From the IMG/VR virus record IMGVR_UViG_2740892229_000023: DNA of 23,828 nucleotides; one strand, 5' to 3'. The notes beneath the pieces were generated by a model. The model searched no databases and was not told the DNA's origin. It saw only the letters and a program-made list of their open reading frames with translations. A program made the position numbers and the translations under genes. Of this stretch, positions 1-22,460 are shown piece after piece. The DNA is from a virus. Its lineage: Duplodnaviria > Heunggongvirae > Uroviricota > Caudoviricetes. Each line of letters opens with the position of its first letter. The stretch's first letter is position 1.

Positions 1-702
1 ATGAAAAACATCGCCGCACAGATGATTAACTTTGACCGTGAGCAGATGCGTCGGATCGCCAACAACATGCCGGAACAGTACGACGAAAAGCCGCAGGTAC
101 AGCAGGTAGCGCAGATCATCAACGGTGTATTCAGCCAGTTGCTGGCAACTTTCCCTGCGAGCCTGGCTAACCGTGACCAGAACGAACTGAACGAAATTCG
201 CCGCCAGTGGGTTCTGGCTTTCCGGGAAAACGGGATCACCACAATGGAACAGGTTAACGCTGGAATGCGCGTAGCCCGTCGGCAGAATCGACCATTCCTG
301 CCATCACCCGGGCAGTTTGTCGCCTGGTGCCGGGAAGAAGCATCCGTTACCGCCGGGCTGCCAAACGCCAGCGAGCTGGTTGATATGGTTTACGAGTATT
401 GCCGGAAGCGCGGGCTGTATCCGGATGCAGAGTCTTATCCGTGGAAATCAAACGCGCACTACTGGCTGGTTACCAACCTGTATCAGAACATGCGGGCCAA
501 TGCGTTGACTGACTCGGAATTACGGCGCAAGGCTGCCGATGAACTTGCCCATATGACTGCGAGAATTAACCGTGGTGAGGCTATACCTGAACCAGTAAAA
601 CAACTTCCTGTCATGGGCGGTAGACCTCTAAATCGTGCACAGGCTCTGACGAAGATTGCAGAAATCAAAGCTAAGTTCGGACTGAAAGGAGCCAGTGTAT
701 GA
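1..702 (+). CDS. P: Replication protein P (DnaB helicase loader), lambda-type
   Basis: 233-aa translation (MKNIAAQMINFDREQMRRIANNMPEQYDEKPQ...KFGLKGASV) matches lambda P from memory in length and sequence; ATG at window position 1. Confidence 0.85.
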   Translation: MKNIAAQMINFDREQMRRIANNMPEQYDEKPQVQQVAQIINGVFSQLLATFPASLANRDQNELNEIRRQWVLAFRENGITTMEQVNAGMRVARRQNRPFLPSPGQFVAWCREEASVTAGLPNASELVDMVYEYCRKRGLYPDAESYPWKSNAHYWLVTNLYQNMRANALTDSELRRKAADELAHMTARINRGEAIPEPVKQLPVMGGRPLNRAQALTKIAEIKAKFGLKGASV

Positions 703-992
703 CGGGAAAAGAAGCAATTATTCATTACCTGGGGACGCATAAGAGCTTCTGTGCGCAGGACGTTGCTGCGGTAACAGGCGCAACAGTAACCAGCATAAAT
801 CAGGCTGCGGCTAAAATGGCGCGGACAGGAATCTTAGTTATTGATGGTAAGGTCTGGCGAACGGTGTATTACCGGTTCGCTACCAGGGAAGAACGGGAAG
901 GAAAGGTGAGCACGAATCTGATTTTCAAGGAGTGTCGCCAGAGTGCCGCGATGAAGCGGGTGTTGGCATTTTATCGCGGCAATTTTCAATAG
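699..992 (+). CDS. ren: Ren protein (Rex exclusion resistance), lambda-type
   Basis: 97-aa translation MTGKEAIIHYLGTH...VWRTVYYRFATREEREGK... matches lambda Ren from memory; ATGA overlap with P stop. Confidence 0.8.
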   Translation: MTGKEAIIHYLGTHKSFCAQDVAAVTGATVTSINQAAAKMARTGILVIDGKVWRTVYYRFATREEREGKVSTNLIFKECRQSAAMKRVLAFYRGNFQ

Positions 993-1029
993 ACTATGTA
1001 CATAAAAATATCATTTTTTTAATACATGT

Positions 1030-1236
1030 CTAATTATTGGACGAAATTGGTTTTTGCTTTGGTTTAGTTAGCCTAGCAATCAAGCCAGAGGCAATAATGA
1101 TGATCCAAGCAATTTGATGCAATGCTACTCCAATATAAGAACCTTTATAGATAATAAAGGCATAGATCGCTAGAAACGAAATAAATATCCATAACGAAAG
1201 TTGATAAATTTTGGCGCGCATATTTAATCCAATCAA
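1030..1236 (-). CDS. Small hydrophobic membrane protein, unknown function (2 predicted TM helices)
   Basis: 68-aa ORF in an AT-rich island; hydrophobic stretches IFISFLAIYAFIIY and IAWIIIIASGLIA. No homolog recognised; start may be ATG 1221 instead. Confidence 0.35.
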   Translation of the reverse strand: MIGLNMRAKIYQLSLWIFISFLAIYAFIIYKGSYIGVALHQIAWIIIIASGLIARLTKPKQKPISSNN

Positions 1237-1477
1237 TCAGAAAGACGAGTAATCATAGAGGTACTATCACCCGGGTAACTATTGCTATTATGAACGGATA
1301 GGATAGAGGCTTCAATAACATATGCATCAAGTATGATGGAATATGTAGGTGAAAATGACTTGTGTCAAATTTGTGGAAATGAGTACCATGTTTCTCTGAA
1401 ATTGATGTCGTTAATGGCTAGTGATAGTGAACTTTTTTACTTTATAATTCCTTTGGTTATAACAATAAGGTAAATTT

Positions 1478-2038
1478 ATGAAGAAGATAATATTATTAGC
1501 CATGATTATTGGTTCTTTAACAGGTTGCGCTAGTGTGCCACCATTGAATTTTTCAACACCTAACGTGGGAGTTAGCCAGAAAAAAATAGATGCTGAAATT
1601 AAGTCATTAACGGTATCACTTGCTCGTCCAGATGAGCAGAAAGGGGATATCACTGCTGGTATGGAGGCTATAACTCCAATTTGGCGTGAATCTTTGCAGG
1701 AAGCACTCGACCGAATGACTATTTTTCGTGATAGTTCACCAAATACGGTTAGCTTAAATGTTAAAGTGTTGGCTCTTGACGTTCCTGCTTTTGGTGTTTC
1801 AATGACAACTAAAGCAATTGCAAGGTATGAAATAATCAACCGTGCGAATGGTGATATTATATATACGCAGGATATTGAGTCTACCGGTACTGTTCCAGCC
1901 AGTTACGCATTCTACGGTATTGTTCGAGCACGCGAATCTGTTAATCGCGCGGTGCAAAACAACATAACGCAGTTCTTGCAAGCATTAGAAAGTGTTGATC
2001 TTTCTCGTCCAATGTTTCCTGTTAGGGTAGCTAAATGA
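1478..2038 (+). CDS. Putative lipoprotein, unknown function
   Basis: 186-aa ORF with signal peptide and lipobox (LAMIIGSLTGC); AT-rich codon usage unlike flanking phage genes. Confidence 0.6.
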   Translation: MKKIILLAMIIGSLTGCASVPPLNFSTPNVGVSQKKIDAEIKSLTVSLARPDEQKGDITAGMEAITPIWRESLQEALDRMTIFRDSSPNTVSLNVKVLALDVPAFGVSMTTKAIARYEIINRANGDIIYTQDIESTGTVPASYAFYGIVRARESVNRAVQNNITQFLQALESVDLSRPMFPVRVAK

Positions 2039-2487
2039 AGCGATTATTCGTAATTGCTCCACTCTTAGTGTTGGTTGGATGCGCACAAAATATATCGCCA
2101 AATAGTTATTCTGTTGGCTCTGTGGGCATGGTTAATCGAACTATCGCTGGTACAGTTATTAGTGCTAGGGGGGTTGATATCAGTGGGACTTCCGCGTTAG
2201 GCGGGACTGCTGGGGCTGCCGTGGGGGCAACCGCTGGTTCTGCGCTTGGTGGGGGAGTTCGTTCTAATATCGTTGGTGCCGTTGGTGGTGCAGTCATTGG
2301 TGGTATTGCCGGGGCAGCAATCGAATCTTCAGCAACAAAACAAACAGGCATGGAATATGTTGTCGAAACTGAGAATGGGAATTTAATGACCATTGTTCAA
2401 GGCAAAGATCCGTTATTTACTCAAGGAAGTAAGGTCCTTGTTTTATACGGAAACCCTTCTCGCATAATAACAGACCCGCGTCACTAA
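2035..2487 (+). CDS. Glycine-zipper outer-membrane lipoprotein (SlyB/Pcp-like)
   Basis: 150-aa ORF with lipobox (LLVLVGC), Gly/Ala-rich zipper (GGTAGAAVGATAGSALGGG...GAVGGAVIGGIAGAAI) and a SlyB-like C-terminus; start overlaps upstream stop (ATGA). Confidence 0.65.
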   Translation: MKRLFVIAPLLVLVGCAQNISPNSYSVGSVGMVNRTIAGTVISARGVDISGTSALGGTAGAAVGATAGSALGGGVRSNIVGAVGGAVIGGIAGAAIESSATKQTGMEYVVETENGNLMTIVQGKDPLFTQGSKVLVLYGNPSRIITDPRH

Positions 2488-2677
2488 CATACCTTTTGAT
2501 TTTGTAAAATCAATTCGTAATAATAAAGTCATCGGAGCTTGAACAACTCCGGTGACTTCTGCGCTAAACGGGGACGTTTATGCGCACATACAATCCAAAC
2601 TCTCTTCTCCCTTCACAGATGCAGAAATGCACCTGCGATTTTTTGCATCCAGCGTCTGACCTCTGCGGAGGTGAAGC

Positions 2678-3133
2678 GTGAACCTACCACAAGATGGCAT
2701 CAAACTGCATCGCGGTAACTTCACCGCTATCGGCCAGCAGATCCAGCCTTATCTGGAGGACGGAAAATGCTTTCGCATGGTGCTTAAACCGTGGCGTGAG
2801 AAACGCAGTCTTTCCCAGAATGCACTCAGCCACATGTGGTACAGCGAAATCAGTGAATACCTCATCAGCAGGGGGAAATCGTTCGCTACCGCAGCATGGG
2901 TAAAAGATGCTCTCAAACACACATACCTCGGTTATGAAACCAAGGACCTGGTTGATGTCGTAACCGGCGAAATCACTACTATCCAGTCGTTACGCCATAC
3001 TTCCGATCTTGATACCGGAGAGATGTATGTCTTCCTGTGTAAGGTTGAAGCCTGGGCGATGAATATTGGCTGCCACCTGACTATTCCGCAGAGCTGCGAG
3101 TTCCAGCTGCTGCGCGACAAGCAGGAGGCGTAA
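2678..3133 (+). CDS. ybcN: YbcN-like nin-region protein (DLP12 YbcN family)
   Basis: 151-aa translation from GTG 2678 ([19 protein letters not shown]...QLLRDKQEA) matches remembered E. coli YbcN. Confidence 0.75.
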
Positions 3134-3303
3134 TGGCTACACCGCTTATTCGTGTCATGAACGGACACATCTACAGAGTACCAAATCGTCGTAAGCGTAA
3201 GCCTGAGCTGAAGCCATCCGAAATACCAACACTGCTCGGATATACCGCTAGCCTGGTTGATAAAAAATGGTTGCGACTGGCAGCAAGGAGGAATCATGGC
3301 TGA
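3133..3303 (+). CDS. ninE: NinE-like small protein
   Basis: 56-codon ORF below the track cutoff ([56 protein letters not shown]); position and C-terminal motif resemble NinE. Confidence 0.6.
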   Translation: MATPLIRVMNGHIYRVPNRRKRKPELKPSEIPTLLGYTASLVDKKWLRLAARRNHG

Positions 3304-3586
3304 TTTGAGAAAAGCAGCGCGTGGTCGGGAATGCCAGGTAAGAATCACTGGCGTATGTAATGGCAACCCTGAAACGTCTGTACTGGCACATATCCGGCTG
3401 GCTGGATTGTGCGGCACCGGTATTAAACCGCCAGACCTTATTGCCACCATTGCCTGTTCTGCCTGTCACGACGAAATCGACCGCCGCACGCATTTTGTCG
3501 ATGCTGAGTACGCAAAAGAATGCGCGCTGGAAGGTATGGCGAGAACGCAGGTTATCTGGCTGAAAGAGGGGGTAATCAAGGCGTGA
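3296..3586 (+). CDS. ybcO: YbcO-like nin-region protein
   Basis: 96-aa ORF from ATG 3296 ([23 protein letters not shown]...), Cys-rich; matches remembered DLP12 YbcO. Confidence 0.75.
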
Positions 3587-3945
3587 ATACTTACCACATC
3601 ACACTACCCTGGCCTCCGAGCAATAACCGCTATTACCGCCATAATCGCGGGCGCACACACATCAGCGCAGAAGGGCAGGCATACCGCGATAACGTCACCC
3701 GAATCATTAAAAACGCAATGCTGGATATCGGCCTGGCTATGCCAGTGAAAATCCGTATTGAGTGCCACATGCCGGATCGCCGTCGCCGTGACCTGGATAA
3801 TCTGCAAAAGGCCGCTTTTGACGCACTCACCAAAGCAGGTTTCTGGCTGGATGATGCTCAGGTCGTTGATTACCGCGTTGTGAAGATGCCTGTTACCAAA
3901 GGTGGGAGGCTGGAACTGACCATCACCGAAATGGGGAATGAATGA
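3583..3945 (+). CDS. rusA: Holliday junction resolvase RusA
   Basis: GTG 3583; 120-aa translation [25 protein letters not shown]...[25 protein letters not shown] matches RusA. Confidence 0.9.
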
Positions 3946-4082
3946 TGTTTGAGTCTTATATGGCAGAGCGTCTTCGCCGCCGCTGGGTGCGCCTGCGCTT
4001 ATATCGTTTTCCTGGTTCTGTTTTGACCGATTACCGGATACTGAAGAATTACGCCAAAACCCTGACAGGAGCAGGAGTATGA
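3942..4082 (+). CDS. ylcG: YlcG-like small protein
   Basis: 46-codon ORF ([46 protein letters not shown]) overlapping rusA stop; conserved position between rusA and Q. Confidence 0.6.
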
Positions 4083-4167
4083 AGTCAGAGATAACAATCA
4101 ACTAATACTATTTTGTTGATTTTTGCTTGTAATTGGCGTTCTGGTCTGATTTTTGTGGAGTAAGTTG

Positions 4168-4551
4168 ATGCGTGATATTCAGATGGTTCTTGAGCGTTGG
4201 GGAGCGTGGGCGGCTAATAATCATGAAGATGTGACCTGGTCGTCCATTGCCGCCGGTTTTAAGGGATTAATTACTTCAAAAGTAAAATCTCGCCCGCAAT
4301 GTTGTGACGATGACGCGATGATCATTTGCGGGTGCATGGCCCGTCTGAAAAAGAACAACAGCGATTTGCACGATTTATTAGTAGATTATTATGTAGTCGG
4401 TATGACATTCATGTCACTGGCAGGTAAGCATTGCTGCTCTGATGGTTATATCGGGAAAAGGTTACAGAAGGCTGAGGGTATAATTGAAGGGATGTTAATG
4501 GCATTAGATATCCGGTTAGAGATGGATATCGTTGTTAATAACTCTAATTAA
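4168..4551 (+). CDS. quuD: Late gene antiterminator Q (QuuD-type)
   Basis: 127-aa translation [24 protein letters not shown]...[16 protein letters not shown] matches DLP12 QuuD. Confidence 0.85.
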
Positions 4552-4740
4552 TATGCCAGTTGTTTACTAAAAGTTATTAAAAATGGGGCGTTGCAACGCC
4601 CCCAAAAATAAAGGGTAATATATAACAGAAGGTTTATATAGTTAGAAGCAAGGTTGTGCTCCTAAAGGAAGTGGCTTGAGGGAGCCACTTATATGTTGGG
4701 GAGGCAAAGCCTCCCGCAACATATCTTTTTCGTAATCAGA

Positions 4741-5838
4741 TTAGAACTGGTAAACCAGACCTACAGCAACGATGTCATCAGTGCTTACACCGAGTGCTTT
4801 AGTGAAGTCATTTTTGTCAAGCAGGTTGATTTTGTAATCAACGAAAGTAGACATATTTTTGTTGAAGTAATAGGTTGCACCTACATCAACATATTTGACT
4901 AAGTCCTGATCGCCCCATACTCCAAGATCCTTACCTTTAGATTGCAGGTAAGCAACGGACGGACGCAGACCGAAATCGAACTGATATTGTGCAACAGCTT
5001 CGAAGTTTTGAGCTTTATTAGCAACGAAGTGATCAGCAAATACAGTCATATTCTGGGTTTCAGAATAGGTAGTGGCCAGGTAAATGTTGTTAGCGTCATA
5101 TTTCAGACCTGCGGCCCAAACTTCTGCATTTTTACCGGAAGCAAATACTTCAGGAAGAACTTTCCCTGCATTAACTTGAGTGTCGGTACGATCAGATTTC
5201 GCATAAGTTGCACCGATACCGAATCCTTCGTATTCATAGGTAGCAGAGAAACCGAAGCCATCACCGTTACCTTCAGTGTAGTTATCGAAATCGCTACGAT
5301 CGTTTTTGCCTTGGTACTGAGCAGCAAAGTTCAGACCATCAACCAGACCAAAGAAGTCGTTGTTACGATAGGTTGCAACACCAGTGGTACGACCAGTCAT
5401 GAACACATCTGTTTGGGTCCAGGTATCGCCACCGAATTCTGGCAGAACGTCAGTCCACGCACCGATGTCGTATGCTACACCGTAGTTACGGCCGTAATCG
5501 ATTGAGCCGTAGTCACCGAATTTCAGGCCTGCAAATGCAAGACGGGTTTTGTCTTTGGAGGAACCTTGAGATTCAGCGCGGTTGCCTTTGAATTCATATT
5601 CCCACTGACCGAAACCAGTCAGCTGATCGTTGATTTGGGTTTCACCTTTGAAGCCAAGACGGGCATAAGTAGTATCACCATCATCTGCATCATTAGAGGA
5701 GAAGTAGTGCTTAGCATTAACTTTCCCGTACAGATCCAGCTTGTTACTGTCTTTATTATAAATTTCAGCTGCCTGAGCAGACATCGCCATCAGTACTGAT
5801 GCAGCTACAGCAGAAATTGCCACTGTTAATTTTTTCAT
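4741..5838 (-). CDS. nmpC: Outer membrane porin NmpC/OmpD family, intact
   Basis: 365 aa with signal peptide ([23 protein letters not shown]), porin beta-barrel motifs and C-terminal ...GLVYQF; lysogenic-conversion moron between Q and lysis genes. Confidence 0.9.
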
Positions 5839-6189
5839 CGTGAGCCCTTTTTTTTGAACTATTATTAAAAAATGATGTCACTGCGCGATAAATATTCATC
5901 TAATCAATGTGATTATTTCAAGATGTAAGTTTTGGTTTCTCGTTTGATTTGTGAAGTAGATCTCTATTTTTATCTGAACTTTTTTCTATCGAATCCTATT
6001 TATAGCTCTTGGCTGAATAAAAATAAATCTATTAGCCAATTTATATTAACGGCTGTTATTTATAAGTGCTCTATAATTTGAAGGTTCAATTTAAATCGGC
6101 TAAAAATAACACTGGAAATTATTTGTTGGTTATTTGTTGAGATTTGCTTATGTATTTGTAGTGGTGTTTTCAATACTCGGTAGCATTCT

Positions 6190-6240
6190 CGCAAATATCA
6201 TTTAGTGGTTTACGTACGTAAAAAATTGGTTATGCTGTTA
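6190..6240 (+). promoter_or_regulatory. Candidate late promoter PR' and Q-utilisation region of prophage 1
   Basis: -10-like TATGCT (6231..6236) just upstream of a short transcribed region ending in a terminator; the block is conserved in inverted orientation at 9395..9460. Confidence 0.35.
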
Positions 6241-6264
6241 AGAGTGGTTACTTCGTCACACAGC

Positions 6265-6299
6265 TTAAACCCGCCGTCGAGCGGGTTTTTCCATTTTTT
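6265..6299 (+). terminator. Intrinsic terminator (tR'-like) upstream of holin
   Basis: Hairpin AAACCCGCCGTCGAGCGGGTTTTT (6267..6290) followed by a T-tract. Confidence 0.55.
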
Positions 6300-6411
6300 G
6301 AGTCTCGATATTAGCTGATAACCCAATACCTGAGTTATTCACTGACTCCGAGTCTGTTACGTTTCGTAGTATTCCCTCAATTTACACCCGCTTTGTCTGC
6401 GAGGTGGGGTT

Positions 6412-6623
6412 ATGAAATCCATGGATAAGTTAACAACGGGTGTCGCCTATGGCACCTCAGCAGGTAGTGCCGGGTACTGGTTTTTACAGCTGCTAGATAA
6501 AGTCACGCCCTCACAGTGGGCGGCAATTGGAGTGCTGGGTAGCCTGGTATTTGGCCTGCTGACGTACCTGACAAACCTTTATTTCAAGATTNNNNNNNNN
6601 NTAAGGCTGCGAGAGGTGAATAA
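6412..6623 (+). CDS. essD: Class II holin (EssD-like), copy 1, interrupted by a 10-N gap
   Basis: [60 protein letters not shown] then N-run; stop overlaps lysozyme start (TAATG). Confidence 0.8.
6592..6601. other. Assembly gap (10 N) inside holin copy 1
   Basis: Run of exactly 10 N. Confidence 0.95.
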
Positions 6624-7120
6624 TGTCGCCATCATTACGCAAGGCTGTAGCAGCTGCTATTGGTGGTGGGGCTGTTGCCATAGCGTCTGTGCTCATCACT
6701 GGTCCGAGTGGTGACGATGGTCTGGAAGGTGTCAGCTACATACCATATAAAGATATTGTTGGTGTATGGACTGTATGTCACGGGCATACAGGAAAAGACA
6801 TCATGCTCGGTAAAACGTATACCAAAGCAGAATGCAAAGCACTCTTGAATAAAGACCTTGCCACTGTCGCCAGATAAATTAACCCATACATCGAAGTCGA
6901 TATACCGGAAACAACGCGCGGCGCTCTTTACTCATTCGTTTACAACGTGGGTGCTGGCAATTTCAGAACATCGACGCTTCTTCGCAAAATAAACCAGGGC
7001 GATATCAAAGGCGCATGTGATCAGTTACGTCGCTGGACATATGCTGGCGGTAAGCAATGGAAAGGTCTCATGACTCGTCGTGAGATTGAGCGTGAAATCT
7101 GTTTGTGGGGTCAGCAATGA
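6623..7120 (+). pseudogene. rrrD: Phage lysozyme (RrrD-like) copy 1 with an in-frame TAA at 6875..6877
   Basis: Frame reads [16 protein letters not shown]...KDLATVAR, then TAA, then continues in the same frame [29 protein letters not shown]...CLWGQQ to 7120. Confidence 0.65.
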
Positions 7121-7301
7121 ACAGAGTAACCGCGATTATCTCCGCTCTGGTTATCTGCATCATCGTCGGCCTGTCATGGGCTGTTAATCATTACCGTGAT
7201 AACGCCATTACCTACAAAGCCCAGCGCGACAAAAATGCCAGAGAACTGAAGCTGGCGAACGCGGCAATTACTGACATGCAGATGCGTCAGCGTGATGTTG
7301 C
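7117..7301 (+). CDS. rzpD: Rz spanin (RzpD-like), N-terminal fragment truncated by gap
   Basis: [61 protein letters not shown] then N-run; ATGA overlap with lysozyme stop. Confidence 0.75.
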
Positions 7302-7311
7302 NNNNNNNNNN
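7302..7311. other. Assembly gap (10 N) joining + strand Rz to the inverted lysozyme copy
   Basis: Run of exactly 10 N. Confidence 0.95.
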
Positions 7312-7554
7312 AGTGGCAAGGTCTTTATTCAAGAGTGCTTTGCATTCTGCTTTGGTATACGTTTTACCGAGCATGATGTCTTTTCCTGTATGCCCGTGAC
7401 ATACGGTCCATACACCAACAATATCTTTGTATGGTATGTAGCTGACACCTTCCAGACCATCGTTACCACTTGGGCCAGTGATTAACACTGATGCTATAGC
7501 AATTGCTCCGCCACCAATAGCAGCAGCAACGGCTTTTCGTAATGATGGAGGCAT
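7312..7554 (-). CDS. Phage lysozyme (RrrD-like) copy 2, N-terminal 81 codons, truncated by gap
   Basis: [39 protein letters not shown]...NKDLAT then N-run; differs from copy 1 at several positions. Confidence 0.8.
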
Positions 7555-7765
7555 TATTCACCTCTCGCAGCCTTGCGCTTATCTTCTTTAATCTTGAAAT
7601 AAAGGTTTGTCAGGTACGTCAGCAGGCCAAATACCNNNNNNNNNNACCTATTGCTGCCCACTGTGAGGGCGTGACTTTATCGAGCAACTGTAAAAACCAG
7701 TACCCGGCACTACCTGCTGAGGTGCCATAGGCGACACCCGTTGTTAACTTATCCATGGATTTCAT
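7554..7765 (-). CDS. Class II holin copy 2, interrupted by a 10-N gap
   Basis: [40 protein letters not shown], gap, then ...[13 protein letters not shown] by reverse-complement reading; a distinct allele from copy 1. Confidence 0.8.
7636..7645. other. Assembly gap (10 N) inside holin copy 2
   Basis: Run of exactly 10 N. Confidence 0.95.
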
Positions 7766-7832
7766 AACCCCACCTCGCAGATGCGGGTGCTGTGTAATGG
7801 AAATAAAAAGGCCACCTGACGTGGCCACCAGA

Positions 7833-8885
7833 TTATTTCCCCACCAGCTCGTTTATCTCTTTCACTGTCTGGTTAAACCGCTCTGACTCAAGCTCAACAC
7901 CTAAGGCCCGACGCCCCAGCGCCATTGCTGCTTTTATTGTGGAACCGGATCCCATAAAAAAATCAGCAACCAGATCACCAGGTCGACTACTGGCATTGAT
8001 TATTTGCCTGAGCATATCCGCCGGTTTCTCACACGGATGTTTACCCGGGTAGAACTGAACGGGTTTATGCATCCAGACATCGGTATAAGGCACGGAGACT
8101 GATACGGAGAAATAGCGCCGGAGAGATTTAAACTCATCCAGCAATTCAGAATATTTGCGATTCAGTGAATCATAAGATGCCACCAGCTGGTGGTGTGGTT
8201 GTTCCAGTTGTTGTTCCTGAAACTTCTCTGCCGCTATACGGGAAAACAGTGCCTGTAACTTCCGATAGTCAGCCTCATTCGGCAACTGCCACTGACTGGC
8301 ACCAAACCAGTGGGAAACCATATTTTTCTTACCTGTGGCTTCGGCAATTTGTTTTGCCGTTATACCCAGTTCGGCACGAGCATCCCTGAAATACGATATC
8401 AGCGGTGCCATTATGTGCTGTTTGAGTTCCCTTTCTTTTGCTGCATAGCCGTCACTTTTGCCGCGATATGGCCCCTGGTAATGTTCAGCAAACAGAACGC
8501 GCTCTGTGGCAGGAAAATATGCGCGCAGACTTTCTTTATTACACCCATTCCAACGTCCGGACGGCTTCGCCCAGATGATATGGTTAAGCACGTTGAAACG
8601 TTCACGCATCATGATCTCAATATCAGATGCCAGGCGATGCCCACAGAACAGGTAAAGGCTTCCGGCAGGTTTTAACACCCGCCAGAACTGGGCCAGACAG
8701 TGGTCCAGCCACTTAAGGTAATCTTCGTCCCCTTTCCACTGATTGTCCCAGCCGTTGGGTTTCACCTTGAAGTACGGCGGATCGGTAACAATCAGGTCAA
8801 TGGAATCATCAGGCAGGGACTGAATAAAATGCAGGCAATCAGCGTTGATTAAATCAACACTGTTTATTTTTACAGTATTTTTCAT
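7833..8885 (-). CDS. Phage DNA methyltransferase (N6-adenine/N4-cytosine family, DPPY motif)
   Basis: 350 aa; motif [11 protein letters not shown] near the N-terminus and motif I FMGSGST near the C-terminus. Confidence 0.85.
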
Positions 8886-9035
8886 GGATCAGTAAGCGTA
8901 ACTCTGGTAGGCTCACTCTGCTTTTGCGCTAAAGCAGTGGGCCGTGGTTCGCTTGTGACCAGTAAGCATGAGCGAATGGCTGGCAGGTGCTACCAACACC
9001 CACCAGCCGCCCATTTTCACAGCAGGAAACCGCCA

Positions 9036-13864: not shown

Positions 13865-14358
13865 TACGCCCCCACGTAATTCCCTGACAGATACCACTCA
13901 TCACTCGATACAGCGCGCTTGCTGCTTTTCCGTAAACACAGCTCACGACGCGCCAGAAAATTGTTTCGTTCTGGCTGGGAGTGGCTTTCACGGAATGCCG
14001 CCATCCACACGGTTGCAGCACGACGGTATAAGCCCCTGGACTCCAGTTCTTCAGCCTGGCGGGTCAGGCACAAAATCACCCGTGGATCGTTAGTACCGAC
14101 ATAGAAATTGCGCACAGGTCTGGTTTCTCGAACTGGTTGTGGTTCCGGTTCCTGCGCTCTCTCAGTCAGGCGCGGGAAATGTCTGCGTGTATCTCCTTCA
14201 CAACGGTGAGCCACACGCCCACTCTGACGTAACTTGCTTGCTGACTGCAGAACGCGCTGCCGTGAGTAACCAGCAAAAGCATCCGCAATGTCTCCGGAAG
14301 TACACCCCGGATGGGCTTCAATGAATTTCTGAACGTCATTTAACAGACTCATGATCAC
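13864..14358 (-). CDS. Hypothetical phage protein (possible PerC-like motif)
   Basis: 164-aa ORF with ATGA coupling on both sides; motif GLYRRAATVWMAAF loosely resembles PerC-type activators. Confidence 0.4.
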   Translation of the reverse strand: MIMSLLNDVQKFIEAHPGCTSGDIADAFAGYSRQRVLQSASKLRQSGRVAHRCEGDTRRHFPRLTERAQEPEPQPVRETRPVRNFYVGTNDPRVILCLTRQAEELESRGLYRRAATVWMAAFRESHSQPERNNFLARRELCLRKSSKRAVSSDEWYLSGNYVGA

Positions 14359-15296
14359 CCCCTGAATCCTGCCGGGATCTGGCTGTAGTCCACGTTGTCG
14401 TAACTGGATTTGAAGTACGGGTCTTCGCGTTTTTCGGTGTACGTGCTTACGGACGGCGATAAGCGCAGGGAAAGCTCATCCCATTTTTCCCGCAGCTTCG
14501 ACGGGCTGAGCACGTTACGGCACCAGAACGGATCGCGGCTGACGCGGCTGTACATCTCGCAGATTTGTTTGTGAGTACGACCATCCTGCACACACATCAG
14601 GCGAATTTCGTTTGCCCAGGCTGTCCAGTTCGGTTCTTTGGGACGAACCACCTCGCCGTCACATTCGGCAGCCTGCTCGTACAGGGCGATGATTTTTTTC
14701 CAGAGCCACTGTGCGCAGGTCAAATCATCCTGCGTCCCCCACTGGCGCTTTTTAGGGCTGAATACAACCGCATCAGGATGGCGAGTTAAAAAATCCTGTT
14801 CAGCCGTCTGCGTGTCCGGTTGCGAAGCGTCCGGACGAGAAGGTTTTTTATCTGACGGATCATGTTTTGATTTTACTGACGGATCCCCGCCAGATTCTGA
14901 CGGGTGAAAACCCGCTTTTTTGCCAGATTTCGACGCATCAAATTTTGACGGGTCAGATTTTGATGCGTCAGATTTTGACGGGTCAGAATCTGACAGTTGA
15001 GAAAATGCCGCTGCCTGAAGCTTCGCAACGTTAAGCTGATAAACATTCGACGCATTGCGGTTACCCTGGCGACGCGCCTTACGCGTTAACCAGCCTTCTG
15101 CTTCCAGCCGTGCGATAGCCGTTCTGACGGTACTCATCCCCGCGCCAATCTGACGGGCAATGGTTTCAATTGATGGCCAGCACACACCTTCGTCATTACT
15201 GAAATCAGCCAGGCGGGCCATAATTGCCACGCTGGATAACTTCATGCCTGATGCAGCGCAACCATCCCATACATAGCCGGTTAATTTAGTGCTCAT
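14355..15296 (-). CDS. Replication initiation protein (lambda O-like N-terminal HTH) containing an internal iteron array
   Basis: 313 aa; N-terminal HTH region (VCWPSIETIARQIGAGMSTVRTAIARLEAEGWL); repetitive SDPSKSDASKSDPSKFDASKS encoded by the iterons. Confidence 0.65.
   Translation of the reverse strand: MSTKLTGYVWDGCAASGMKLSSVAIMARLADFSNDEGVCWPSIETIARQIGAGMSTVRTAIARLEAEGWLTRKARRQGNRNASNVYQLNVAKLQAAAFSQLSDSDPSKSDASKSDPSKFDASKSGKKAGFHPSESGGDPSVKSKHDPSDKKPSRPDASQPDTQTAEQDFLTRHPDAVVFSPKKRQWGTQDDLTCAQWLWKKIIALYEQAAECDGEVVRPKEPNWTAWANEIRLMCVQDGRTHKQICEMYSRVSRDPFWCRNVLSPSKLREKWDELSLRLSPSVSTYTEKREDPYFKSSYDNVDYSQIPAGFRG
14891..14996. repeat. Iteron array (about six 15-bp direct repeats, consensus CAGATTTTGACGGGT): candidate replication origin
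   Basis: Direct repeats cagattctgacgggt, cagatttcgacgcat, caaattttgacgggt, cagattttgatgcgt, cagattttgacgggt, cagaatctgacag, with an AT-richer segment at 14830..14880. Confidence 0.6.
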
Positions 15297-15305
15297 GACC
15301 GACCT

Positions 15306-15644
15306 CTATTTCCCTGAATTTACGACGAAACTGTTCGAGCGGACTGAAGCATTCATGCTCATAACCTTCGCGGAGGTAGATAACCCGTTGTGTTTCCGGC
15401 TCCCAACGAATGACTCTGACGGGCACTCCGTAGTGATCTTTGAACCAGCGGTTAACTTGTCGCAAAGGACTGTCTCCTTCTGCCGGTTGAAATCACCCAC
15501 AGCCCACTCTGCAAAGCTGTGGGTTACAATTTCCCTGTCACCTGGTACATTCACTGCATAGCAATATTCCACCTTCGCTTTTCCACCCGGTACAGGAAGC
15601 GCAATCAGTTGCGAGCGACGGTAGTGTGTTGTTAAACTGTTCAT
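15306..15644 (-). CDS. Hypothetical early-right protein
   Basis: 112-aa ORF between the regulator-like gene and the replication gene; C-terminal portion looks low-quality and may be frameshifted. Confidence 0.35.
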
Positions 15645-16210
15645 GCGTTAGTTTCTCCACAACCAGAAGCAATCGACGCCACGACGCCCGGAGCTGCACA
15701 CTCGCGGGCGTCATTACTTTCTGAAATGCAAAAAATTTTGTAGACAAGTGCTGCATGCTCCTGCAGCTTCGAAATTGAGAGATACAGCTCGTCGTTAATT
15801 GCTGTCTTCTCATGCGGTTCCACTACACCGTCTTCGATTGCTGAACGAATCTGTTTTGAATAACTGCCGATCTGTTCAATGACTTCCAGCAGACGCTGGT
15901 TAATATCGGCGTTGTCCACATCTTCGACGTCAGGAAGAGACACAAAGACGCCATTTGCAGACTGCGCCACAGCATCAGCAATGAAGTGAGTGCCACCAGC
16001 ACGCTGTAAAACCATTGCCCATCCCAGCGGGAAAATCTGATCGCCATCTGCACGAAGGCGGTTGAATAAAGCGTTTTCTGTTACATCGAGCCAGTCAGCC
16101 GCTTCAGCGTAACCACCCGGCAACGCCGCGATAGTTTTTCTGACAGCTTTCACGTACCACTCAGGCTGTTTTTCTACTTTCCAGTGATGCTTACCCACGA
16201 TTAGCCTCAT
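15641..16210 (-). CDS. Early-right regulatory protein (possibly YdaT/CII-like)
   Basis: 189-aa ORF immediately downstream of cro, in the position of cII-type regulators; family assignment from memory only. Confidence 0.45.
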
Positions 16211-16241: not shown

Positions 16242-16442
16242 CTAATCTTTCGGATAGATATCCGGTCTTAAGTCAGATTTCGTAATTGCACCTGACGTGC
16301 ATTGCTCAAGTTTTTTAGCCAGCACAAAACTGGCTTTTTTATAGCCATTGAAAACCAGCCGTAAGTAGCCAGGTGTTGAGCCAACTTTTCCGGCCAACTC
16401 GCCCTGCTGTTCTTTGGTTAAAGAGTCCCAATACGCTTTCAT
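16242..16442 (-). CDS. cro: Cro-like HTH repressor
   Basis: 66 aa MKAYWDSLTKEQQGELAGKVGSTPGYLRLVFNGYKKASFVLAKKLEQCTSGAI... divergent from cI across a palindrome-bearing intergenic region. Confidence 0.7.
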   Translation of the reverse strand: MKAYWDSLTKEQQGELAGKVGSTPGYLRLVFNGYKKASFVLAKKLEQCTSGAITKSDLRPDIYPKD

Positions 16443-16445
16443 ACA

Positions 16446-16517
16446 ATATGTACCTCCGGTGTACATATTACATGATTGAAATGAACCTTCAAGATACTTG
16501 TACCTTAACGGTACAAG
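16446..16517. promoter_or_regulatory. Right operator region (OR) with two palindromic operators between cro and cI
   Basis: ATATGTAC-CTCCGGT-GTACATAT (16446..16468) and CTTGTACC-TTAAC-GGTACAAG (16497..16517). Confidence 0.55.
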
Positions 16518-16532
16518 GGTTTTAATTTCGTT

Positions 16533-17207
16533 ATGAAAACAATCCATGACATCCGGCGGTCTAACGCCAGAAAACTGAGAGATGGTGTTGGCGGGAATTC
16601 TTCCTTTGCCACTATGATTGATCGCGAGCCAACCCAGACCAGCAGGTTTATGGGAGATGGTGCTACTAAAAATATCGGTGACAGCATGGCACGACACATC
16701 GAAAAATGTTTCGACCTGCCTGTCGGATGGCTCGATCAAGAACACCAGACAACGAACATCACAAAAAAACCTGATGTTTCAATCACTAATAAACAAATCA
16801 CATTAGTCCCTGTCATATCATGGGTACAGGCCGGAGCATGGAAAGAAGTTGGATATTCTGAGGTTGATTTGAGCACAGCAGAAACGTATCCCTGCCCTGT
16901 ACCCTGTGGGGAAATGACTTATATCTTGCGGGTGATAGGTGATTCAATGATTGATGAGTACCGCCCGGGAGACATGATTTTTGTCGATCCTGAAGTACCT
17001 GCCTGCCACGGTGACGACGTTATTGCATTGATGCACGATACAGGTGAAACCACCTTCAAAAGGTTGATAGAAGATGGGACACAGCGTTATCTCAAAGCGT
17101 TAAACCCAAACTGGCCTGAGCCTTACATTAAGATCAACGGTAATTGCTCTATAATTGGAACTGTGATTTTCTCAGGAAAACCAAGAAGATACAAAATCAA
17201 AGCCTAA
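16533..17207 (+). CDS. cI: cI-type prophage repressor (N-terminal HTH, C-terminal S24 LexA-like peptidase domain)
   Basis: 224 aa; C-terminal ...YILRVIGDSMIDEYRPGDMIFVDPE...GDDVIALMHDTGETTFKRL typical of the S24 autocleavage domain. Confidence 0.85.
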   Translation: MKTIHDIRRSNARKLRDGVGGNSSFATMIDREPTQTSRFMGDGATKNIGDSMARHIEKCFDLPVGWLDQEHQTTNITKKPDVSITNKQITLVPVISWVQAGAWKEVGYSEVDLSTAETYPCPVPCGEMTYILRVIGDSMIDEYRPGDMIFVDPEVPACHGDDVIALMHDTGETTFKRLIEDGTQRYLKALNPNWPEPYIKINGNCSIIGTVIFSGKPRRYKIKA

Positions 17208-17218
17208 TCAATGTTTAT

Positions 17219-17243
17219 GAACCTGCTTCGGCAGGTTTTTTTA
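17219..17243 (+). terminator. Intrinsic terminator after cI
   Basis: Hairpin CCTGC-TTCG-GCAGG followed by TTTTTTTA. Confidence 0.55.
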
Positions 17244-17246
17244 TAC

Positions 17247-17280
17247 TTGACAATGTACCTTTGAGATACATAATGTACCC
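17247..17280 (+). promoter_or_regulatory. Candidate PL/OL: near-consensus sigma70 promoter overlapped by operator-like TGTACC half-sites
   Basis: TTGACA (17247..17252), 16-nt spacer, CATAAT (17269..17274); TGTACC at 17254..17259 and 17275..17280 echo the OR palindrome half-sites. Confidence 0.45.
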
Positions 17281-17344
17281 AAGAGAAACAACAAACAGGC
17301 AGGACGCCCACGAAGTAGCCCCCTGGAGCATATGAAGTCCAGGA

Positions 17345-17370
17345 TGATTCGTTAGCAACAAAAAAGCGCC
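17345..17370 (-). terminator. Possible terminator for the convergent gene 17422..17913
   Basis: Reverse complement reads AAGCGTCCTATAGGGCGCTTTTTT (stem plus T-tract). Confidence 0.35.
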
Positions 17371-17421
17371 CTATAGGACGCTTCGCTCTTTAACAATCTG
17401 GATATCCACAACAGTAGCAAT

Positions 17422-17913
17422 CTACAGATTGCCGTTAAGTTTTCTGGCCAACTCCTCAATGGATGGAGGCGATACGTAATCCGGATTTTTATTCATCAGA
17501 AACTTATTTTCACAGTGGAGGCACCTGCTTTTATGAAAAAGCTCATCTTCGCTAACCGGGAATGGTTGAAGTATCGATACTATCTTTTGTCCAAAACATT
17601 TTGGGCAAAGATGCATGGTTATGCTGTCACCGTTCACGATTACCTCCTTCGAGTATACAAAAGTACCCGACTCAAGTTGGTTAAGGATATAGCCTTCCGT
17701 CTGAGCCTCAAAGTTTTCGAATTCTGCAATTTTAGCTTTGAGAGAAGCATTTATTTCTTGATAAGAGCCCAGCAGTTCAACGAGAGACACGCATTCGCGC
17801 TGAATAGACGCAAGCTTTGAGTTCAGCTCACCAATAGCCGCATTTACTTCAGCTTGAGTTTTTGCCTCGTTCATTAGTTTTGCAATCTGGGCGATTTCAC
17901 GAATAGCCGTCAT
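17422..17913 (-). CDS. Hypothetical coiled-coil protein with C-terminal CxxC...CxxC zinc-ribbon motif
   Basis: About 163 aa from MTAIREIAQIAKLMNEAK...; heptad-like N-terminus; CPKCFGQK and CLHCENK; upstream track extension judged spurious. Confidence 0.5.
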   Translation of the reverse strand: MTAIREIAQIAKLMNEAKTQAEVNAAIGELNSKLASIQRECVSLVELLGSYQEINASLKAKIAEFENFEAQTEGYILNQLESGTFVYSKEVIVNGDSITMHLCPKCFGQKIVSILQPFPVSEDELFHKSRCLHCENKFLMNKNPDYVSPPSIEELARKLNGNL

Positions 17914-18406
17914 TGCTGCCGTTAATTCAGCGATCACATTGAATACTCTTATTGTTGTTGGGGATATCCAGATTAACCGAATCCTTGTTGTTGGGGAATA
18001 ACTAGGTCCACCTCGCCTGATGTGGCTAAAAGCAGGCACATAACAGCTAAGTATTTTCAACCAGAGAGAATCCTTAGCGTTGTGGTGAATGCGGCTCAGC
18101 GCACGCGGGTTAAGGTTGAGGCTGACAGTCGACCTTCTGTGGATACCCACCCGCCTGGTGTGCAACCTTCGCCAGGCACCGGGAGGCACCCGGCACCACA
18201 ACTTTATGCTGTGTGTAGTCTTGGCGGTACCAGCTTGTACCCTTGCTTCCGGCTGGTACCGTCCTTTTTACAAAACAGAGAAGAGCATCACCGGACGACG
18301 GGCTCATAACCCAATCCATCCGGGCGGCAGTCACCGCAGGTGTTCTTCTCTGTTTTGTGGAGAAACTAACCGACCTTGCAGGGTCGATATGATGAGGGGC
18401 AGCAAA

Positions 18407-18768
18407 ATGGCTAGCGAACGCAGTACTGATGTGCAGGCATTTATCGGGGAGCTGGACGGCGGCGTATTTGAAACCAAAATCGGCGCAGTTCTCAGTGAAG
18501 TCGCTTCCGGTGTGATGAACACGAAAACCAAAGGTAAGGTCTCGCTCAACCTAGAAATCGAACCGTTTGATGAGAACCGAGTGAAAATCAAACACAAACT
18601 CTCATATGTTCGCCCGACTAACCGCGGGAAAATTCCGAAGAAGACACCACCGAAACGCCGATGTATGTCAATCGCGGTGGTCGCCTGACTATTCTGCAGG
18701 AAGACCAGGGACAGTTGCTGACTCTTGCCGGTGAACCTGACGGAAAACTCCGCGCAGCAGGTCGTTAA
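18407..18768 (+). pseudogene. YfdP-like early-left gene with an apparent +1/-1 frameshift near 18628..18640
   Basis: Frame A reads MASERSTDVQAFIGELDGGVFETK...RPTNRGKIPKK and stops at 18688; another frame continues as TPMYVNRGGRLTILQEDQGQLLTLAGEPDGKLRAAGR to 18768. Confidence 0.4.
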
Positions 18769-18833
18769 TATCGTTTTTAATTAACTGATTATTTATCTCA
18801 TCACTGAATATCTTTATATAGTGAGGACTTATT

Positions 18834-19658
18834 ATGTCTCAGAACTTAGACGCAACCGCAATTAATCAAATCCATGCCCTTATTTCTGCTCAGGGTGTTA
18901 ATGAAATTATCAGTAAGATTGGTGCCGATGCTGTGGCATTGCCTGAGAATTTCCGCATTCATGATCTGGAAAAATTTAATTTAAATCGCTTCCGTTTCCG
19001 TGGTGCGCTTTCCACTGCCAGCATCGATGATTTTACCCGTTATTCTAAAGATCTTGCAGATGAAGGCACCCGCTGCTTTATCGATGCTGATAATATGCGT
19101 GCCGTCAGTGTGCTTAACCTAGGTACTATTGATGAACCAGGTCACGCAGATAACACCGCCACACTCAAACTGAAAAAGACAGCACCGTTCTCTGCTCTGT
19201 TGTCTGTTAACGGCGAGCGTAACTCCCAGAAGTCACTAGCAGAATGGATTGAAGACTGGGCCGACTATCTTGTGGGCTTTGATGCTAATGGTGACGCTAT
19301 TCAGGCAACAAAAGCGGCTGCGGCTGTCCGTAAAATCACGATTGAAGCAAACCAGACCGCTGATTTTGAAGATAATGACTTCAGCGGCAAACGCTCCCTG
19401 ATGGAGTCTGTCGAAGCGAAGACCAAAGACATTATGCCAGTGGCATTTGAATTTAAATGCGTTCCGTTTGAAGGTCTGAAAGAACGTCCGTTTAAATTAC
19501 GCCTCAGTATTATCACTGGCGATCGTCCTGTACTGGTTCTGCGCATTATTCAGCTGGAGGCGGTGCAGGAAGAAATGGCTAACGAATTTCGTGATCTGCT
19601 TGTTGAGAAATTCAAGGACAGCAAAGTAGAAACCTTTATTGGTACTTTCACCGCCTGA
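18834..19658 (+). CDS. yfdQ: YfdQ-family protein (DUF2303)
   Basis: 274-aa translation [34 protein letters not shown]... matches remembered YfdQ in length and sequence. Confidence 0.7.
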
Positions 19659-22384: not shown

Positions 22385-22460
22385 TGGTGCCGATAATAGG
22401 AGTCGAACCTACGACCTTCGCATTACGAATGCGCTGCTCTACCAACTGAGCTATATCGGC
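22385..22460 (-). tRNA. thrW: tRNA-Thr (anticodon CGU)
   Basis: Reverse complement GCCGATATAGCTCAGTTGGTAGAGCAGCGCATTCGTAATGCGAAGGTCGTAGGTTCGACTCCTATTATCGGCACCA folds as a cloverleaf with anticodon loop TTCGTAA. Confidence 0.85.

What the first reader, a model, noticed from the sequence alone, without database searches (positions are those of the whole stretch)
17422..17913. Convergent coiled-coil / zinc-ribbon gene embedded antisense to the candidate PL transcript next to cI
Seen in sequence: a convincing - strand ORF (coiled-coil N-terminus, CPKCFGQK...CLHCENK) lies downstream of cI and downstream of a near-consensus + strand promoter with operator-like half-sites (17247..17280). It is therefore opposite in orientation to the early-left operon. 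Inference: genes in the rex/sieB-equivalent position near cI are frequently exclusion or defence genes; the antisense arrangement would couple its expression inversely to PL activity.
Basis: partly seen in the sequence, partly recalled or inferred. Interest (0 to 1): 0.55.

Follow-up and report, generated by a model that had tools for sequence, protein, structure and literature searches.

The report
Rip1-family anti-phage gene antisense to PL
The minus-strand gene next to the prophage repressor is real and is a distant relative of Rip1, a prophage defence protein described in 2026 that kills an infected cell by forming a membrane pore when it meets ring-shaped phage packaging proteins.

Summary
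**Observation.** The minus-strand ORF is a conserved gene. Its start is probably the GTG at 17937 (171 aa), not the ATG at 17913. It lies about 150 nt downstream of an 11/12 promoter (17247-17274) that is overlapped by two repressor operators, and it is antisense to the early-left operon.

**Identity.** It belongs to the Rip1 ("ring interacting pore 1") family.
- A family profile hits PDB 9OOX (phage HK446 Rip1 bound to T6 small terminase) at E 4e-17.
- The AlphaFold model matches only that entry (Foldseek E 6e-7, probability 1.0).
- The four zinc-ribbon cysteines and the amphipathic N-terminal helix are shared.

**Position.** HK446 rip1, HK620/HK630 hkaP and Pseudomonas JBD30 gp30 are all antisense inserts in lytic operons. 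Lambda sieB holds the same position but is unrelated in sequence. The defence reading is therefore supported by homology. The proposed inverse coupling to PL is plausible but untested.

**What seems new.** The gene sits in a conserved non-coding "socket":
- a one-way terminator;
- a perfect boxA on the PL strand;
- 19-nt inverted repeats;
- a roughly 110-nt leader.

These flanks are better conserved than the coding sequence, and in other E. coli they hold a different cargo gene (ECs1072 family).

**Verdict.** This is a new member of a known kind, of moderate interest.

The parts
16533..17207 (+). cI-type repressor (YmfK, LexA/S24 family); context
   Evidence: Pfam Peptidase_S24 E 1.5e-26; RefSeq ymfK
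17219..17238 (+). intrinsic terminator after cI
   Evidence: terminator scan
17247..17274 (+). PL-like promoter TTGACA-16-CATAAT (11/12)
   Evidence: promoter scan; conserved in e14 and in relatives that lack the cassette
17254..17290 (.). two operator sites (TGTACC-N5-GGTACA type) overlapping PL: 17254-17270 and 17274-17290
   Evidence: pattern search, 7 hits against 0.67 expected; the other strong hits are the OR sites at 16449-16465 and 16499-16515
17322..17343 (+). conserved hairpin in the PL leader RNA (CCUGGA...UCCAGG)
   Evidence: fold -9.3 kcal/mol; the stem changes in a compensatory way in e14, L018, L022 and L027
17357..17384 (-). one-way intrinsic terminator of the rip1-like gene (stem 17363-17384 plus a U run)
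   Evidence: scan; minus-strand RNA folds at -14 kcal/mol followed by U6; plus-strand RNA folds at -7.2 kcal/mol with a C.A mismatch and no U run; the stem is invariant and the loop variable in 10 or more loci
17385..17396 (+). boxA-like element GCTCTTTAACAA on the PL strand
   Evidence: exact 12/12 match and the only hit in the window at <=1 mismatch; the GCTCTTTA core is kept in 12 of 16 divergent loci, in the O157 locus L008 and in the ECs1072-cargo locus L027
17395..17413 (.). left arm of the 19-nt inverted repeat that brackets the CDS
   Evidence: the repeat finder I1, 95% complementary; the core AATCTGGATATCC is conserved across loci; the cargo-exchange boundary falls inside it
17422..17937 (-). 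Rip1-family gene, 171 aa, GTG start (the finding's ORF began at 17913)
17956..17974 (.). right arm of the inverted repeat, in the 5' leader of the gene
17938..18048 (-). conserved leader or promoter region of the cassette (61-87% identical where the CDS is 54-67%)
   Evidence: alignment A2; identities; present in 1423 E. coli genomes against 650 for the gene; no stable consensus RNA fold and no sigma-70 consensus

Best explanation
The gene at 17422-17937 (minus strand) encodes a Rip1-family, single-protein abortive-infection defence.

**Mechanism, inferred from the characterised homologues.**
- The protein is harmless on its own in the lysogen.
- A superinfecting phage reaches late gene expression and makes a ring-shaped oligomer: small terminase for E. 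coli phages, portal for Pseudomonas phages.
- The C-terminal four-cysteine beta domain of Rip1 docks around that ring.
- The ring templates a roughly 12-mer. Its N-terminal amphipathic helices form a pore in the inner membrane.
- The cell dies before progeny mature.

**What the sequence layout shows.**
- The gene sits immediately downstream of the cI-controlled PL promoter, in the opposite orientation.
- Its terminator works in one direction only. Its transcript therefore stops before PL, while the PL transcript has to run antisense through the entire gene.

**What is inferred from the layout.** In the lysogen PL is repressed and the gene can be expressed. After induction, strong PL transcription would lower rip1 expression by collision and antisense RNA. 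This might limit activation by the prophage's own Nu1-like small terminase and portal.
For: **Homology**
- The family profile hits only PDB 9oox_L (HK446 Rip1) significantly: E 4.2e-17, query 6-151 against chain 16-160 of 164.
- BLASTP to HK446 gp37 gives 27% identity, E 6e-11.
- BLASTP to HK620 HkaP gives 30% identity, E 2e-21.
- BLASTP to JBD30 gp30 gives 29% identity, E 1e-19.

**Structure**
- The AF2 model has pLDDT 88.8.
- Foldseek against PDB gives only 9oox_L and 9oox_M: E 6e-7 and 1e-6, probability 1.00, TM 0.52-0.70 normalised by target.
- Four cysteines are invariant across all subfamilies.
- The N-terminal helix is the most amphipathic segment (muH 0.52) and there is no transmembrane segment, as in HK446 Rip1.

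**Mechanism of Rip1**
- PMC13434031 section 5 summarises Patel et al. 2026, Nature 651:1060. A conference report and a paper on Avs2 and Upx give supporting mentions.

**Layout**
- Promoter and operators.
- One-way terminator.
- The same antisense position is seen in HK446, HK620, HK630, an O157 Rac-like prophage and 16 enterobacterial loci with four repressor types.
- JBD30 gp30 is antisense between the terminase genes.
- This prophage encodes a Nu1-like DNA-packaging protein, a large terminase and a portal.
Against: - Identity to the characterised Rip1 is only 27-28%. The trigger and the phage range of this subfamily are unknown.
- I could not read the primary Rip1 paper. The mechanism is taken from a review and from the PDB entry title.
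- No consensus sigma-70 promoter was found upstream of the gene in any locus, so expression in the lysogen is assumed, not shown.
- PADLOC (2023), Pfam and NCBIfam have no model for the family, so there is no independent curated classification.
- The inverse coupling to PL is inference only. Rip1 protein already present would persist after induction.
- This particular prophage looks partly decayed. Its lysozyme, Rz, minor tail protein L and yfdP genes are marked as pseudogenes.
Confidence: 0.7

Rival explanations
1. The protein has the Rip1 fold but does something else. It might be a regulator or chaperone that uses its coiled coil and zinc ribbon to bind nucleic acid or a host protein, in the manner of CT398/HP0958 or DksA/TraR. 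Alternatively it might exclude phages at a different step.
For: - Identity to Rip1 is only 27-28%.
- This subfamily has an extra C-terminal tail with a short helix at 160-167.
Against: - Pfam shows no zf-dskA_traR, DUF164 or zinc-ribbon family hit.
- At sequence level the only PDB relative is Rip1, at E 4e-17 over the full length.
- Foldseek finds nothing else below E 0.1.
Confidence: 0.13
2. The antisense orientation has no regulatory role. The gene is a moron that happens to be tolerated in this orientation, because this keeps it out of the lytic transcript as a sense message. PL activity does not meaningfully change its output.
For: - Morons are often inserted in reverse orientation with their own terminator.
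- Family members occur antisense in very different operons: PL operons and the Mu-like late operon. This could simply reflect insulation.
- No transcript data are available.
Against: - The arrangement is conserved across at least 20 loci and four repressor types.
- The terminator is built to stop only the gene's own transcript.
- A consensus boxA sits on the PL strand at the point where PL transcription enters the cassette, and it is conserved more strongly than the CDS.
- From my own knowledge, not checked here: in P22 a PL-derived antisense RNA (sas) controls sieB translation (Ranade and Poteete 1993).
Confidence: 0.3
3. The gene is a silent relic in a decaying prophage and is not expressed.
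For: - No recognisable sigma-70 promoter was found.
- Several neighbouring prophage genes are pseudogenes in this strain.
Against: - The ORF is intact in 645 of 650 E. coli genomes that carry it.
- It is present in inducible phages PhiR49_1 and PhiR29.
- The protein family is conserved with invariant structural residues.
- The leader and the 3' element appear to be under strong constraint, being better conserved than the CDS.
Confidence: 0.05

Closest known systems
Rip1 (ring interacting pore 1) of phage HK446, gp37; PDB 9OOX with T6 small terminase; Patel et al. 2026
   Same: - Alignable over the full length (E 4e-17).
- Same predicted fold.
- Same four cysteines and an amphipathic N-terminal helix.
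- Similar size (171 against 164 aa).
- Prophage-encoded and antisense inside the PL operon.
   Different: - Only 27-28% identical.
- Lacks the 10-residue N-terminal extension of HK446 Rip1 and has a longer C-terminal tail.
- HK446 rip1 lies after gene N and overlaps its 3' end. The window gene lies directly after PL, in a phage with no N gene seen, inside a conserved socket with boxA and inverted repeats that HK446 and HK620 lack.
- The trigger is untested.
HK620 HkaP (annotated 'putative superinfection exclusion protein'); HK629 and HK630 HkaP
   Same: Same family (30% identity, E 2e-21). Antisense in the PL operon between hkaQ and cIII.
   Different: A different subfamily in an N-dependent lambdoid background, without the conserved flanks. 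I found no functional data for it.
JBD30 gp30, D3112 orf25, MP38 ORF25 and an unnamed DMS3 ORF (Pseudomonas Mu-like phages)
   Same: Same family (29% identity, E 1e-19). A lone reverse-strand gene between the small-terminase-position gene and the large terminase. This matches the location the review gives for the Pseudomonas Rip1.
   Different: A different host and phage type. The gene is antisense to the late operon, not the early one. Escapers reported for Pseudomonas phages map to portal.
SieB of lambda and P22
   Same: Same slot and same antisense orientation within the PL operon. It is also an abortive-type exclusion gene expressed from the prophage.
   Different: No sequence similarity. 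SieB has hydrophobic membrane segments (maximum Kyte-Doolittle 1.73 against 1.05). It has no zinc ribbon.
Lambda RexAB
   Same: An abortive-infection function in the immunity region that acts on the membrane.
   Different: A two-protein system, co-transcribed with cI on the same strand and located before PL. It is unrelated in sequence.
CT398 / HP0958 type coiled-coil plus zinc-ribbon proteins
   Different: No sequence or Pfam relationship. Those proteins are bacterial flagellar or secretion chaperones, not prophage genes.

Membership tests
Rip1 (ring interacting pore 1) | Full-length sequence homology to an experimentally characterised Rip1 | tested here: met
   Profile against PDB: 9oox_L E 4.2e-17, query 6-151 against chain 16-160. 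BLASTP 27% identity, E 6e-11.
Rip1 (ring interacting pore 1) | Fold: N-terminal long helices followed by a small C-terminal beta domain | tested here: met
Rip1 (ring interacting pore 1) | Four conserved cysteines (CxxC...CxxC) in the C-terminal domain | tested here: met
   C111, C114, C139 and C142 are invariant in the window protein, HK446 Rip1, HkaP, JBD30 gp30 and 19 close homologues.
Rip1 (ring interacting pore 1) | Amphipathic N-terminal helix, with no classical transmembrane segment | tested here: met
   The highest hydrophobic moment (0.52) is at residues 5-25. Maximum Kyte-Doolittle over 19 residues is 1.05. HK446 Rip1 behaves alike.
Rip1 (ring interacting pore 1) | Encoded in a prophage as a stand-alone single gene | tested here: met
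   Lambdoid prophage at tRNA-Thr/proA. No partner gene is conserved next to it.
Rip1 (ring interacting pore 1) | Binds ring-shaped phage oligomers (small terminase or portal) and assembles into a roughly 12-mer | not testable with these tools
   Needs biochemistry or a multimer prediction. Known only for HK446 Rip1 (PDB 9OOX title; review).
Rip1 (ring interacting pore 1) | Anti-phage phenotype with membrane permeabilisation; not toxic alone | not testable with these tools
   Experimental.
SieB superinfection exclusion | Sequence homology to lambda or P22 SieB | tested here: not met
   BLASTP to lambda SieB gives 20 bits over 39 residues.
SieB superinfection exclusion | Antisense position within the PL operon near the immunity region | tested here: met
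   Lambda sieB at 34482-35036 on the plus strand, among minus-strand PL genes. The window gene is antisense to PL.
DksA/TraR zinc-finger proteins | Match to the zf-dskA_traR domain | tested here: not met
   No Pfam hit at E<=0.1 apart from a sub-threshold coiled-coil family.
rrn/nut-type boxA antitermination site (for the 17385-17396 element) | Consensus GCUCUUUAACAA on the transcribed strand downstream of a promoter | tested here: met
   Exact match on the PL strand, about 105 nt downstream of the presumed PL start (just after the -10 at 17274). It is the only hit in the window, and the core is conserved in divergent loci.
rrn/nut-type boxA antitermination site (for the 17385-17396 element) | NusB/NusE binding and suppression of Rho termination | not testable with these tools
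   Experimental. There is no N gene and no second boxA downstream of cro.

The most novel reading that the evidence does not exclude
The Rip1-like gene sits in a reusable antisense socket built into the early-left operon of e14-like and Rac-like lambdoid prophages. The socket has four parts:
- a leader;
- 19-nt inverted repeats that mark where cargo is exchanged;
- a terminator that works only for the cargo strand;
- an rrn-type boxA on the PL strand.

On this reading, boxA lets the PL transcript cross about 650 nt of untranslated antisense RNA without Rho termination. As a result, prophage induction both reads through the cassette and silences the defence gene, sparing the phage from its own terminase or portal sensor. 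Different defence cargos (Rip1-like, ECs1072 family) would be swapped in and out between the repeats.
Probability: 0.25. Interest if true: 0.6.

Novelty: new member of a known kind. Interest (0 to 1): 0.4.

Why it matters
- **Annotation.** The gene is labelled "hypothetical protein" in 650 of 5426 complete E. coli genomes, including many O157:H7 strains. Neither Pfam, NCBIfam nor PADLOC names the family. Linking it to Rip1 gives these prophages a testable defence function and predicts the trigger class, ring-forming packaging proteins.
- **Subfamily.** It is divergent (27-28% identity), so it could reveal how Rip1 specificity for different rings evolves.
- **Flanks.** If functional, the conserved flanks would show how a prophage carries a suicide sensor for terminase or portal inside its own lytic operon without harming itself. 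They would also define a hotspot in which to look for further unknown defence genes, with the ECs1072 family as a first candidate.

Tried and rejected
- **DksA/TraR-like.** I considered this from the cysteine spacing. It is rejected: there is no Pfam zf-dskA_traR hit and the fold differs.
- **SieB homology.** Rejected.
- **PADLOC defence models.** Nothing at or below E 0.05.
- **Rfam.** At gathering score only the tRNA is found. Nothing was significant over the gene or its leader at permissive thresholds.
- **Structured-RNA reading of the 5' leader.** RNAalifold gives only -4.8 kcal/mol and 9 pairs, essentially without covariation. It is not supported.
- **Sigma-70 promoter upstream of the gene.** None reached 9/12 in the window. 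None was conserved in 14 loci at 8/12 or better.
- **Co-variation in the extension of the 5'/3' inverted repeat.** Cognate and non-cognate duplex energies gave a mixed result, so this is inconclusive.
- **C-over-G skew on the PL strand as a sign of a Rho-loading (rut) site.** No signal.
- **YmfI of e14, which occupies the same slot.** Unrelated to the gene.
- **Primary Rip1 paper.** The paper (doi 10.1038/s41586-025-10075-1) is not in the held library, so the mechanism is cited second-hand.
- **Wasted search.** One literature search for 'hkaP' inside words returned only unrelated papers.

Full report
**Where the window comes from.** The window is 100% identical to a lambdoid prophage of E. coli 2013C-4991, integrated at tRNA-Thr next to proA. 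The layout of its immunity region is:

| Feature | Coordinates | Strand |
|---|---|---|
| O-like replication gene | 14355-15296 | - |
| ymfL | 15641-16210 | - |
| cro (ymfT) | within 16242-16445 | - |
| cI (ymfK, Peptidase_S24) | 16533-17207 | + |
| the finding | 17422-17937 | - |
| yfdP (frameshifted), yfdQ, yfdR ... xis, int | from 18407 | + |

The head and tail genes are lambda-like and include a Nu1-like DNA-packaging protein, a large terminase and a portal.

**Checking the observation.**
- The minus-strand ORF is real.
- All close homologues start M-I-A-E-L, which matches the GTG at 17937. The CDS is therefore 17422-17937 (171 aa), not 17422-17913.
- AlphaFold2, run with 20 homologues, gives a confident model (pLDDT 88.8). 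It has helices at 2-24 and 28-79, then a six-stranded domain.
- The CPKC and CLHC motifs are four invariant cysteines.
- The plus-strand promoter at 17247-17274 scores 11/12.
- Two copies of the operator pattern TGTACC-N5-GGTACA overlap that promoter. The same pattern marks the cro/cI intergenic region. That is 7 hits against 0.67 expected.
- The promoter scan found no other plus-strand promoter-like site before the early-left genes.

**What the gene is.**
- Pfam, PADLOC and NCBIfam give no significant match. PHROGs places it in phrog_1244, of unknown function.
- A profile of the family hits one solved structure, PDB 9OOX chain L, "ring interacting pore 1 (Rip1)" of phage HK446, at E 4.2e-17 across the whole protein.
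- Pairwise identities are 27% to HK446 gp37, 30% to HK620 HkaP and 29% to Pseudomonas phage JBD30 gp30.
- The four cysteines and several core residues are invariant across these subfamilies.
- The N-terminal helix is the most amphipathic part, and there is no transmembrane segment.
- The family is large: 2283 cluster representatives at E<=1e-3.

**How Rip1 works (second-hand).** I could not access the primary paper, Patel et al. 2026, Nature 651:1060. The account below is from a review (PMC13434031).
- Rip1 is a single protein that acts as both sensor and effector.
- It is not toxic alone.
- Escape mutants map to portal in Pseudomonas phages and to small terminase in E. coli phages.
- Twelve Rip1 subunits surround an 11-mer small-terminase ring.
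- The N-terminal amphipathic helices form a pore, and the cell lyses prematurely.
- The Pseudomonas gene lies between the small and large terminase genes. JBD30 gp30 lies in exactly that place, on the reverse strand.

I infer the same mechanism for the window protein. Family membership is well supported. The specific trigger is not known.

**The antisense arrangement.** Antisense placement is a family trait.
- HK446 rip1 lies on the opposite strand directly after gene N.
- HK620 and HK630 hkaP lie antisense between hkaQ and cIII.
- An O157 Rac-like prophage carries a 93%-identical copy between racR/DUF1391 and the remnant early-left genes, again antisense.
- In the 16 enterobacterial loci, wherever flanking genes could be identified (13 loci), the integrase and yfd genes on one side and a repressor of one of four types on the other lay on the strand opposite to the gene.
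- Lambda sieB occupies the same slot and orientation but is unrelated in sequence.

In the window the arrangement is asymmetric.
- The gene's terminator folds at -14 kcal/mol with a U run on the minus strand.
- On the plus strand it folds at only -7.2 kcal/mol, with a C.A mismatch and no U run.
- The gene's transcript should therefore stop before PL, while PL transcription should pass through the gene.

It is a reasonable inference that PL firing lowers rip1 expression and so protects the induced prophage from its own terminase or portal. None of this was tested.

**An unexpected feature: conserved flanks.** I compared loci where the protein is 45-61% identical and the CDS is 56-67% identical at nucleotide level.
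- The 52-nt 3' element is 85-94% identical.
- The 112-nt 5' leader is 63-87% identical.

Read on the PL strand, the 3' element runs in this order:
- the hairpin;
- GCTCTTTAACAA (17385-17396), an exact boxA consensus and the only such site in the window;
- TCTGGATATCC.

A 19-nt inverted repeat (17395-17413 and 17956-17974, 95% complementary) brackets the CDS. Its 13-nt core is conserved across loci.

In E. coli UID2309220027 the same flanks enclose a different cargo: an ECs1072-family gene on the antisense strand plus a 68-aa ORF. The homology to the window there covers 17288-17401 and 17954-18900, so it breaks inside the repeat arms. The leader occurs in 1423 complete E. coli genomes, against 650 for the rip1-like gene. 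E14 of K-12 has ymfJ and ymfI in this slot, and neither it nor a cassette-less relative has boxA.

I read this as a conserved socket for antisense morons just downstream of PL. The role I propose for boxA is an hypothesis based on established boxA biology, for example in CRISPR arrays (the eLife 2020 paper PMC7665894, listed and not read here). On that hypothesis, Nus-factor loading would stop Rho from terminating the PL transcript on the long untranslated antisense stretch. Other readings remain open:
- a 3'UTR-derived small RNA;
- recombination boundary sequences.

The leader has no convincing RNA fold and no consensus sigma-70 promoter. How the cargo is transcribed is unresolved.

**Novelty and score.** The protein family and its mechanism were published in 2026, so the finding is a new and divergent member of a known kind. 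The practical value is annotation, since every copy is currently "hypothetical". It also offers a second E. coli subfamily for specificity studies. The socket architecture is the part that may be new. It raises the interest somewhat but rests on sequence conservation only.

| Measure | Value |
|---|---|
| Interest | 0.4 |
| Confidence in Rip1-family membership | about 0.9 |
| Confidence in the full mechanistic reading | about 0.7 |

Noticed in passing
window 17357-17413 and 17938-18048; loci L008, L010-L022, L027: The non-coding flanks of the gene are more conserved than its coding sequence. They comprise a one-way terminator, an exact boxA on the opposite (PL) strand, 19-nt inverted repeats and a leader of about 110 nt. 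The leader occurs in 1423 E. coli genomes, against 650 for the gene itself.
   Followed up: partly
L027 (NZ_CM142691.1) 2501-3400: The same flanks hold a different antisense cargo, an ECs1072-family protein (NF033230, 144 aa) plus a 68-aa plus-strand ORF. The exchange boundaries fall inside the inverted-repeat arms. ECs1072 has no PADLOC hit and may be another candidate exclusion gene.
   Followed up: partly
window 18049-18272 (+): A full-length match to the prophage sRNA family STnc100 (RF02076) scores 43.4 bits, just under the gathering score of 47, at E 3e-8. Its 3' end is a DicF-like hairpin plus U run (-26 kcal/mol, z -3.9). RefSeq annotates this stretch as a frameshifted hypothetical protein, and it is homologous to the e14 'ymfH' region. 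It may be RNA rather than a pseudogene.
   Followed up: partly
window 18276-18352 (+): A very stable long-range stem-loop lies between the sRNA-like region and yfdP. A 14-bp outer stem encloses two small hairpins (-37.3 kcal/mol, z -6.5). Its function is unknown.
   Followed up: no
window 17322-17343 (+): The PL leader hairpin CCUGGA...UCCAGG shows compensatory stem changes in e14 (CCCGGU/ACCGGG), Buttiauxella (CCCCA/UGGGG) and Kosakonia (CCCGG/CCGGG), with a conserved ...UAUGAAG loop. It could be a protein-binding or processing site in the early-left transcript.
   Followed up: no
window about 1-9000 and 18407-18768 (record NZ_CP027355.1 2650000-2679081): The prophage looks partly decayed in this strain. 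The yfdP, lysozyme (rrrD), Rz (rzpD) and minor tail protein L genes are marked as pseudogenes, while the rip1-like gene is intact. The prophage also carries the iss (bor-like) serum-survival moron.
   Followed up: no
window 22388-22460 (-): A tRNA (Rfam 71.8 bits, annotated tRNA-Thr) lies next to the integrase and marks the attachment site and the prophage end, followed by proA.
   Followed up: no
databases: NCBIfam (June 2026), Pfam and PADLOC 2.0 have no model that recognises even the structurally solved HK446 Rip1. The whole family is therefore currently annotated as hypothetical.
   Followed up: yes
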